Part shown: piece after piece, positions 45,039-45,080 of the stretch | Numbering within the stretch: the first letter of the stretch is position 1 | Layout of the letters: each line of letters starts with the position of its first letter | NCBI RefSeq assembly: GCF_003334385.1 | Contig: NZ_QOWN01000006.1 | DNA: 64,000 bases | Strand: one strand, 5' to 3' | From: Escherichia coli | GTDB taxonomy: Bacteria; Pseudomonadota; Gammaproteobacteria; Enterobacterales; Enterobacteriaceae | Notes under the pieces: model-generated | Databases searched by the model: none | What the model saw: only the letters and a program-made list of their open reading frames with translations | What the model was told of the DNA's origin: nothing | Made by a program: the position numbers and the translations under genes

Positions 45039-45080
45039 TGTACATTTATATTTACACCATATGTAACGTCGGTTTGACGA
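45039..45080. promoter_or_regulatory. Tandem TyrR boxes (strong plus weak) upstream of tyrP
   Basis: tgtacatttatatttaca matches TGTAAA-N6-TTTACA; adjacent tgtaacgtcggtttgacg is a weaker match. Confidence 0.7.

What the first reader, a model, noticed from the sequence alone, without database searches (positions are those of the whole stretch)
45039..45080. Tandem TyrR boxes upstream of tyrP
tgtacatttatatttaca is a near-perfect TGTAAA-N6-TTTACA TyrR box. It is followed after 6 bp by a weaker box, tgtaacgtcggtttgacg. Adjacent strong and weak boxes are the known arrangement that lets tyrosine repress and phenylalanine activate tyrP.
Basis: partly seen in the sequence, partly recalled or inferred. 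Interest (0 to 1): 0.2.

Follow-up and report, generated by a model that had tools for sequence, protein, structure and literature searches.

The report
Known TyrR operator of E. coli tyrP
This is the already well-studied pair of binding sites for the regulator TyrR in front of the E. coli tyrosine transporter gene tyrP. It is real and strongly conserved, but it is not new.

Summary
The window is Escherichia coli K-12-type DNA, 100% identical to MG1655 over ftnA-yecH-tyrP. TGTACATTTATATTTACA (45039-45056) matches the TyrR consensus at 11 of 12 positions and is the best match in the 64 kb. TGTAACGTCGGTTTGACG (45062-45079) matches at 9 of 12. It follows after 5 bp, not 6, and ends at 45079, not 45080.

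The weak box alone is at chance level. Its exact 23-bp offset from the strong box is not (about 1e-4 expected per window).

In 80 enterobacterial species both boxes, the 5-bp gap and the G-N14-C pairs are present in 80 of 80. The arms are at least 91% conserved (all but one position at least 94%) next to flanks and central spacers at 7-77%.

The right arm of the weak box is the tyrP -35 hexamer (TTGACG). A conserved -10 (TAACCT) lies 17 bp downstream.

The literature describes this arrangement. With tyrosine and ATP, hexameric TyrR fills both boxes and represses. With phenylalanine, dimeric TyrR on the upstream strong box activates.

Verdict: already known, textbook biology, low interest. One unexplained by-product is a conserved palindrome (45009-45020) that travels with the divergent gene yecH.

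The parts
45039..45056 (.). Strong (high-affinity) TyrR box TGTACA-TTTATA-TTTACA, 11 of 12 consensus matches, with G45040 and C45055 forming the G-N14-C pair. Its centre is about -62.5 from the inferred start site.
   Evidence: It is the only match with at most 1 mismatch in 64 kb (0.12 expected). Arm positions 45040-42, 45044 and 45053-56 are 91-99% conserved in 81 sequences, while the central 6 bp are 28-77%. A G-N14-C 18-mer stands at this place in 80 of 80 species, with scores of 9-11 out of 12.
45057..45061 (.). 5-bp gap (CCATA) between the two 18-mers. It sets the centre-to-centre distance at 23 bp.
   Evidence: Direct reading. The length is 5 bp in 80 of 80 species, while the sequence is not conserved (17-53% identity).
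45062..45079 (.). Weak (low-affinity) TyrR box TGTAAC-GTCGGT-TTGACG, 9 of 12 matches, with G45063 and C45078 forming the G-N14-C pair. Its centre is about -39.5.
   Evidence: One search lists it as one of 42 matches with at most 3 mismatches. The left arm TGTAA is 95-100% conserved, the right arm TTTGACG is 98-100%, and the centre is 7-64%. It scores 9 of 12 in 78 of 81 sequences and 8 in 3, and never reaches 10.
45074..45079 (+). tyrP -35 hexamer TTGACG (5 of 6 to TTGACA). It is identical with the right arm of the weak box.
   Evidence: Sequence. It is conserved at 98-100%, and 17 bp separate it from the conserved -10. The assignment as -35 is inferred from sequence and conservation. It agrees with my recollection of Andrews et al. 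1991, which is not held in the library.
45097..45102 (+). tyrP -10 hexamer TAACCT (3 of 6 to TATAAT; T1, A2 and T6 present).
   Evidence: T45097, A45098, C45101 and T45102 are conserved at 99-100%. The match is too weak for the consensus scan, which found no + strand promoter here. That fits a promoter that needs an activator. Inferred.
45103..45110 (+). G+C-rich discriminator GCGCCG, followed by the conserved CA where transcription probably starts (45109 or 45110).
   Evidence: GCGC at 45103-45106 is 98-100% conserved, C45109 is 99% and A45110 is 95%. The start site is inferred from its distance to the -10 and was not measured here.
45148..46359 (+). tyrP coding sequence (403 aa, GTG start), the regulated gene.
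   Evidence: ORF list. RefSeq annotates 'tyrosine transporter TyrP' in identical MG1655 DNA. The GTG start is conserved in 80 of 80 species.

Best explanation
This is the operator-promoter of the E. coli tyrosine-specific transporter gene tyrP. Two TyrR binding sites lie side by side, with centres 23 bp apart.

The upstream strong box (45039-45056, centred near -62) is occupied by a TyrR dimer even without cofactor. The downstream weak box (45062-45079, centred near -39) cannot hold TyrR on its own, and its right arm is the -35 hexamer.

With tyrosine and ATP, TyrR becomes a hexamer. The hexamer is anchored on the strong box, also fills the weak box, and so blocks the -35 region: this is repression.

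With phenylalanine, TyrR stays a dimer on the strong box only. From that class I position it contacts the alpha subunit of RNA polymerase and stimulates an intrinsically poor promoter (-10 TAACCT): this is activation.

Shown here: the sequences, their rarity, the identity of the gene, the geometry relative to the conserved promoter elements, and strong purifying selection on exactly the TyrR-contact positions.

Taken from the literature and not tested here: TyrR binding, the oligomeric states, and the effects of tyrosine and phenylalanine.
For: (1) Identity. Over 2001 bases the window is 100% identical to E. coli K-12 MG1655, where the ORF at 45148-46359 is annotated tyrP. Of 5426 complete E. 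coli genomes, 5420 hold at least 80% of this query at 95% identity or more.

(2) Motif. The strong box is 11 of 12 and unique in the window (0.12 expected). The weak box is 9 of 12 and sits exactly 23 bp downstream.

(3) Defining residues. Both boxes have G and C 14 bp apart, the feature that PMC4374768 calls invariant and essential.

(4) Phylogenetic footprint. In 80 species with TyrP at 78-99% identity (Escherichia, Citrobacter, Salmonella, Klebsiella, Enterobacter, Kluyvera, Kosakonia, Yersinia and others), 80 of 80 keep both boxes with a 5-bp gap. Arm positions are 91-100% conserved. The central spacers, the gap and the flanks are 7-77%.

(5) The boxes keep a fixed distance to the tyrP start codon (-109 in 68 of 80 species). 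They persist in the 18 species where no yecH homologue was found in the DNA held next to tyrP.

(6) The right arm of the weak box, TTGACG, is followed after 17 bp by an invariant TA..CT and then a conserved CA.

(7) Literature. Tyrosine gives a hexamer on adjacent high- and low-affinity sites, which represses. Phenylalanine gives a dimer on the high-affinity site, which activates (PMC3424551). Apo-TyrR represses slightly, Phe-TyrR activates and Tyr-TyrR represses strongly (PMC6524683). Activation needs a strong box upstream of the -35 (PMC7142922). TyrR acts as a class I activator at tyrP (PMC4374768). tyrP is a core member of TyrR regulons across gammaproteobacteria (PMC5343134). In Yersinia pestis tyrP changes 2.7-fold in a tyrR mutant and carries a TyrR motif (PMC4325908).
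Against: Nothing contradicts it. The limits are as follows.

No binding or expression experiment can be done here.

The primary papers (Kasian 1986; Andrews 1991a, b; Lawley 1995; Yang 1996, 2004) are not held in the library. Details such as the alpha-CTD contact and the measured start site rest on secondary sources or my memory.

One secondary source says a 'strong' box overlaps the tyrP -35 (PMC4374768). The sequence shows that the overlapping box is the 9-of-12 one.

The consensus promoter scan found no + strand promoter, because the -10 is only 3 of 6.

The weak box taken alone is statistically indistinguishable from chance.
Confidence: 0.97

Rival explanations
1. Only the strong box is a TyrR site. 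On this view the 'weak box' is just the -35 hexamer plus a chance resemblance, and TyrR bound at the strong box alone does the repressing.
For: Matches with at most 3 mismatches are at chance frequency in the window (42 found, 27 expected). Conservation of the right arm TTGACG could be explained entirely by its role as the -35.
Against: The left arm TGTAA (45062-45066) is 95-100% conserved although it is not a sigma-70 element. The 5-bp gap is kept in 80 of 80 species while its sequence drifts. The G-N14-C pair is kept. The literature states that repression uses the adjacent high- and low-affinity sites together.
Confidence: 0.02
2. The boxes also, or instead, regulate the divergent gene yecH, in the way the akr-ipdC pair of Enterobacter cloacae shares two TyrR boxes.
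For: The strong box lies only about 82-99 bp upstream of the yecH ATG at 44957, on the other strand. Divergent control by TyrR has a precedent (PMC4374768).
Against: The boxes keep a fixed distance to tyrP and not to yecH: where yecH lies close by, the intergenic region measures 182-250 bp, and in a few species it is far longer. They persist in the 18 species where no yecH homologue was found next to tyrP. yecH has its own conserved palindrome at a fixed 51-53 nt from its ATG. No yecH promoter-like site overlaps the boxes. No paper found links yecH to TyrR.
Confidence: 0.06
3. The A+T-rich 'strong box' is merely an UP element or curved DNA of the tyrP promoter, and it resembles the TyrR consensus by chance.
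For: The region 45033-45056 is A+T-rich and lies at about -77 to -54, roughly where UP elements lie. From memory, Yang et al. 2004 reported an UP element that overlaps this box.
Against: A match with at most 1 mismatch is expected 0.12 times per window. Conservation is confined to the symmetric arms GTA.A ... TACA, while the A+T-rich centre varies freely. That is the signature of a dimeric protein site, not of an UP element. The two roles do not exclude each other.
Confidence: 0.01

Closest known systems
The tyrP operator-promoter of Escherichia coli K-12 (Kasian, Davidson & Pittard 1986; Andrews, Lawley & Pittard 1991; Yang et al. 2004; review Pittard, Camakaris & Yang 2005)
   Same: It is the same DNA. 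The window is 100% identical to MG1655 across ftnA-yecH-tyrP. The arrangement is the same: adjacent strong and weak boxes, with the weak one over the -35.
   Different: Nothing differs.
Other multi-box TyrR operators of E. coli (aroF-tyrA, aroL, aroP, tyrB, mtr)
   Same: They use the same consensus TGTAAA-N6-TTTACA. The logic is the same: a strong box nucleates and a neighbouring weak box is filled by the tyrosine- and ATP-induced hexamer.
   Different: Most of them are only repressed. Among TyrR-controlled genes, activation is reported only for tyrP, mtr, the aroP P3 promoter and folA. Of these, tyrP is the one described as switching sign with the cofactor at a single promoter. I did not examine those loci here; they lie outside the window.
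akr-ipdC intergenic region of Enterobacter cloacae UW5 (PMC4374768)
   Same: It has a strong and a weak TyrR box. The strong box activates from upstream of a -35, with phenylalanine as the best inducer. In vitro, the weak box needs the adjacent strong box.
   Different: There the two boxes serve two divergent genes, and the weak box has atypical half-site spacing. At tyrP both boxes serve one gene, with canonical N6 spacing. The comparative data give no sign that yecH shares them.

Membership tests
TyrR box (operator site of the TyrR regulator) | Match to the palindromic consensus TGTAAA-N6-TTTACA: at least 10 of 12 for a strong box, fewer than 10 for a weak box (definition quoted in PMC4374768). 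| tested here: met
   45039-45056 matches at 11 of 12 and 45062-45079 at 9 of 12.
TyrR box (operator site of the TyrR regulator) | An invariant G in the left arm and C in the right arm, 14 bp apart, essential for binding (PMC4374768). | tested here: met
   The pairs are G45040/C45055 and G45063/C45078. They are 99-100% conserved in the 81-sequence alignment and present in 80 of 80 species.
TyrR box (operator site of the TyrR regulator) | [quoted passage not shown] | tested here: met
   The gap is 5 bp and the centres are 23 bp apart. The gap has the same length in 80 of 80 species although its sequence is free to vary. 'Same face' is inferred from the spacing and was not measured.
TyrR box (operator site of the TyrR regulator) | It lies in the control region of a gene for aromatic amino acid transport or synthesis. 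| tested here: met
   The downstream gene is tyrP. The boxes sit at -109 and -86 from its GTG, and this distance is fixed across species.
TyrR box (operator site of the TyrR regulator) | Purified TyrR binds the site. The strong box binds without cofactor; the weak box binds only with tyrosine and ATP. | not testable with these tools
   This is known from the literature only (summaries). The primary papers are not held.
tyrP-type dual control (repression by tyrosine, activation by phenylalanine) | The weak box overlaps the -35, so a hexamer occludes the promoter. The strong box lies upstream of the -35 at a class I distance. | tested here: met
   TTGACG (45074-79) is the right arm of the weak box. 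A 17-bp spacer leads to the conserved TAACCT, and a conserved CA at 45109-10 follows. The box centres are therefore near -39.5 and -62.5. The start site is inferred, not measured.
tyrP-type dual control (repression by tyrosine, activation by phenylalanine) | Expression changes depend on tyrR: down with tyrosine, up with phenylalanine. | not testable with these tools
   Literature only: PMC6524683 and PMC3424551. For the Yersinia pestis orthologue, see PMC4325908.

The most novel reading that the evidence does not exclude
The most novel reading still open is that the yecH-tyrP intergenic region holds more than the TyrR operator. The invariant palindrome TGCGC-NN-GCGCA (45009-45020), fixed 51-53 nt from the yecH start in about 40 species, could be the operator of an undescribed regulator of yecH, a metal-binding protein of unknown function. 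TyrR at the nearby strong box might also influence yecH. A smaller point is that the weak box is held at exactly 8-9 of 12 matches in all 81 sequences and never drifts towards consensus. That suggests selection for low affinity itself, not only for the -35.
Probability: 0.12. Interest if true: 0.3.

Novelty: already known. Interest (0 to 1): 0.05.

Why it matters
This is a classic model of how one regulator can switch from activator to repressor at a single promoter, depending on which amino acid it has bound. Finding it again adds nothing new for E. coli.

The comparative result is a useful confirmation: the two boxes, the 5-bp gap and the -35 overlap are invariant in 80 species. It gives a clean positive control for motif scanning, because a 'weak' site that is statistically invisible on its own becomes highly significant through its fixed offset and its conservation.

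Tried and rejected
(1) I tried to read the primary papers: PMC208197 (Andrews 1991), PMC178520 (Yang 1996), PMC1952039 (folA, 2007) and PMC176579 (Lawley 1995). None is held. A full-text search for the strong-box sequence found nothing.

(2) The consensus promoter scan gave no + strand promoter in 44900-45200. I therefore inferred the promoter from conservation instead.

(3) My first regular expression for the two-box architecture was one base too long and matched nothing. I corrected it.

(4) I considered that the conserved block at 45008-45022 was part of the tyrP control region, either a third TyrR box or an upstream promoter. I rejected this because it moves with yecH and not with tyrP. 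In E. coli, nothing in that block matched the TyrR consensus with 3 or fewer mismatches.

(5) I looked 23 bp downstream of the weak box (45085-45102) for a third site for the third dimer of the hexamer. There is no G-N14-C pair and no resemblance (direct reading).

(6) A literature search for yecH found no known regulator site. The papers report only a 0.5-fold change on SlyA overproduction and translational effects in acid.

Full report
**What is in the sequence.** Reading 44700-45500 and checking by script gives three pieces. TGTACATTTATATTTACA lies at 45039-45056. The five bases CCATA follow at 45057-45061. TGTAACGTCGGTTTGACG lies at 45062-45079. Against TGTAAA-N6-TTTACA the first box matches 11 of 12 specified positions and the second 9 of 12.

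**Is it more than chance?** A search of the whole 64 kb window, both strands, finds one match with at most 1 mismatch. It is this one, against 0.12 expected from shuffles. With at most 2 mismatches there are 7 matches against 2.9 expected. With at most 3 mismatches there are 42 against 27 expected. So the strong box stands out on its own and the weak box does not. What is improbable is the pair. A box with at most 3 mismatches at exactly +/-23 bp from a box with at most 1 mismatch is expected roughly 0.12 x 2 x 27/64000, about 1e-4 times per window (my arithmetic).

**Where it is.**
- A 2001-base stretch around the site is 100% identical to E. coli K-12 MG1655 and other strains. Of 5426 complete E. 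coli genomes, 5420 hold at least 80% of it at 95% identity or more.
- In the MG1655 RefSeq record the local gene order is ftnA, yecH (opposite strand), tyrP, yecA, then tRNA-Leu, tRNA-Cys and tRNA-Gly.
- The ORF at 45148-46359 (GTG start, 403 aa) is the annotated tyrosine transporter TyrP.
- yecH is 44718-44957 on the minus strand.
- The boxes therefore lie in the 190-bp yecH-tyrP intergenic region, 109 and 86 bp before the tyrP start codon.

**Comparative test.** I scanned one genome per species for TyrP relatives. The scan returned 80 loci with TyrP at 78-99% identity, from Escherichia, Citrobacter, Salmonella, Klebsiella, Raoultella, Enterobacter, Kluyvera, Kosakonia, Leclercia, Lelliottia, Atlantibacter, Trabulsiella, Franconibacter, Yersinia and others.
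- All 80 carry a G-N14-C 18-mer, then exactly 5 bp, then xGTAA-N7-TTGACx upstream of tyrP. In 68 of them it sits at the same -109 position.
- In the MAFFT alignment of the 200 bp upstream of the start codon, strong-box positions 45040-42 (GTA), 45044 (A) and 45053-56 (TACA) are 91-99% conserved.
- Weak-box positions 45062-66 (TGTAA) are 95-100% conserved, and 45073-79 (TTTGACG) are 98-100%.
- The central six bases of each box, the 5-bp gap and the flanks are only 7-77% conserved.
- Conserved symmetric arms with free centres are the expected footprint of a dimeric DNA-binding protein.
- The weak box scores 9 of 12 in 78 of 81 sequences and 8 in the other three, and never reaches 10. The strong box scores 9-11 and never 12.

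**Promoter geometry.**
- The right arm of the weak box, TTGACG (45074-79), is a 5-of-6 -35 hexamer.
- Seventeen bases downstream lies TAACCT (45097-102). Its T1, A2, C5 and T6 are 99-100% conserved.
- GCGC follows (45103-06, 98-100% conserved), and then CA at 45109-10 (99% and 95%).
- I infer the -10, a G+C-rich discriminator and a start site at 45109 or 45110. This puts the box centres near -39.5 and -62.5.
- The consensus scan did not call this promoter because the -10 is only 3 of 6. That fits a promoter that profits from an activator.
- The start site was not measured here.

**What the literature says.**
- The primary J. Bacteriol. and Mol. Microbiol. papers are not held. Several held papers summarise them.
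- PMC4374768 gives the strong/weak definition, the essential G and C 14 bp apart, the dependence of weak boxes on an adjacent strong box, hexamer formation with tyrosine and ATP, and tyrP as an example of class I activation.
- PMC3424551 states that with tyrosine TyrR forms hexamers and binds adjacent high- and low-affinity sites, repressing tyrP. With phenylalanine, dimers bind only the high-affinity site, contact RNA polymerase and activate.
- PMC6524683 adds that apo-TyrR slightly represses tyrP.
- PMC7142922 says activation needs a strong box upstream of the -35.
- PMC5343134 lists tyrP among the most conserved members of TyrR regulons.
- In Yersinia pestis, tyrP expression changes 2.7-fold in a tyrR mutant and a TyrR motif lies upstream (PMC4325908). 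This matches the Yersinia loci in my set.
- One sentence in PMC4374768 says a 'strong' box overlaps the tyrP -35. The sequence shows that the overlapping box is the 9-of-12 one, as I recall from Andrews et al. 1991.

**Mechanism.**
- Shown here: the two sites, their rarity, their fixed geometry relative to conserved -35 and -10 elements and to tyrP, and selection on the contact positions.
- Taken from the literature: a TyrR dimer sits on the strong box.
- Taken from the literature: tyrosine and ATP drive hexamer formation, the hexamer also occupies the weak box and so covers the -35, which represses.
- Taken from the literature: phenylalanine leaves a dimer at about -62, which stimulates RNA polymerase through the alpha subunit, which activates.

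**Rivals.**
- *The weak box is only a -35.* This is unlikely, because its left arm is invariant without being a sigma-70 element, and because the gap length is fixed while the gap sequence drifts.
- *The boxes serve yecH.* This is unlikely as a conserved function. The boxes keep their distance to tyrP, while the intergenic length is 182-250 bp where yecH lies close by and far longer in a few species. They also remain in the 18 species where no yecH homologue was found next to tyrP.
- *The strong box is only A+T-rich UP-element DNA.* This does not fit the arm-specific conservation.

**Comparison and novelty.** This is not a relative of a known system. It is the known system itself, the tyrP operator of E. 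coli K-12. Every defining feature that can be read from sequence is met. The biochemical and genetic features cannot be tested here but are published. Novelty: already known. Interest: low.

**By-products.**
- A 12-bp palindrome, TGCGCCAGCGCA (45009-45020), is the only TGCGC-NN-GCGCA in the window. It is conserved as TGCGC-YR-GCGCA, with occasional single-base variants, in about 40 species. It lies at a fixed 51-53 nt from the yecH ATG in all but one of them, while its distance to tyrP varies from 131 to 182 nt. It belongs to yecH. Its binding factor is unknown, and no paper I found explains it.
- A 10-of-12 TyrR-like 18-mer lies 38 bp upstream of the 366-aa ORF at 13275-14375 on the minus strand, in A+T-rich DNA. 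I take that ORF to be torY from recalled gene order; its identity was not checked. The 18-mer is unassessed.
- The Rfam scan found MicL, C0465, three tRNAs and two ES036 matches.

Noticed in passing
window 45009-45020: A 12-bp palindrome, TGCGCCAGCGCA, lies between yecH and the TyrR boxes. It is conserved as TGCGC-YR-GCGCA, with occasional single-base variants, in about 40 of the 62 species whose locus holds a yecH homologue. It sits a fixed 51-53 nt upstream of the yecH ATG in all but one of these, while its distance to tyrP varies from 131 to 182 nt. No match was seen in most loci where no yecH homologue was detected. It looks like an operator or promoter element of yecH; the regulator is unknown.
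   Followed up: partly
L011-L021, L024 (Citrobacter) and L059-L061 (Atlantibacter), between the yecH palindrome and the strong TyrR box: These species carry an extra 20-60 bp containing ...AATACATCTT or ...TATACATCTT. From memory this resembles an NsrR half-site. E. coli lacks the insertion.
   Followed up: no
L008, L009, L020, L047, L050, about -174 to -186 from tyrP: A 9- or 10-of-12 TyrR-like 18-mer with G-N14-C (for example CGCTAACGCAGGTTTACA) overlaps the yecH palindrome in some Citrobacter, Enterobacter and Kosakonia species. The E. coli sequence at that place does not match.
   Followed up: no
window 14413-14430: TGTATAATTAAATATACA matches the TyrR consensus at 10 of 12 and keeps the G-N14-C pair. 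It lies 38 bp upstream of the 366-aa ORF at 13275-14375 on the minus strand, in very A+T-rich DNA. I take that ORF to be torY from recalled gene order; its identity was not checked. Seven matches with at most 2 mismatches occur in the window against 2.9 expected, so it may be chance.
   Followed up: partly
window 45062-45079 compared with 80 species: The 'weak' box is more strictly conserved than the 'strong' one. It scores 8-9 of 12 in all 81 sequences and never drifts towards consensus. Two of its three mismatches to the TyrR consensus, the G at position 15 and the G at position 18, are what make its right arm read TTGACG, the -35.
   Followed up: yes
window 45103-45106 and 45138-45147: Two further conserved stretches. 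The discriminator GCGC just after the -10 is 98-100% conserved. The stretch AGA.GAAAGC just before the GTG start is 85-100% conserved, more than the AGGA (16-40%) a few bases upstream that looks like the ribosome-binding site.
   Followed up: no
window 14684-14991 (-), 28982-29059 (+), 47285-47584 (-), 10706-10748 and 57470-57511 (+): Rfam matches at gathering score: MicL sRNA, C0465 sRNA, three tRNAs (annotated Leu, Cys and Gly in MG1655) and two ES036 (CssrF) matches.
   Followed up: no
PMC4374768, Introduction: [quoted passage not shown] In the sequence, the box that overlaps the -35 is the weak one (9 of 12).
   Followed up: yes
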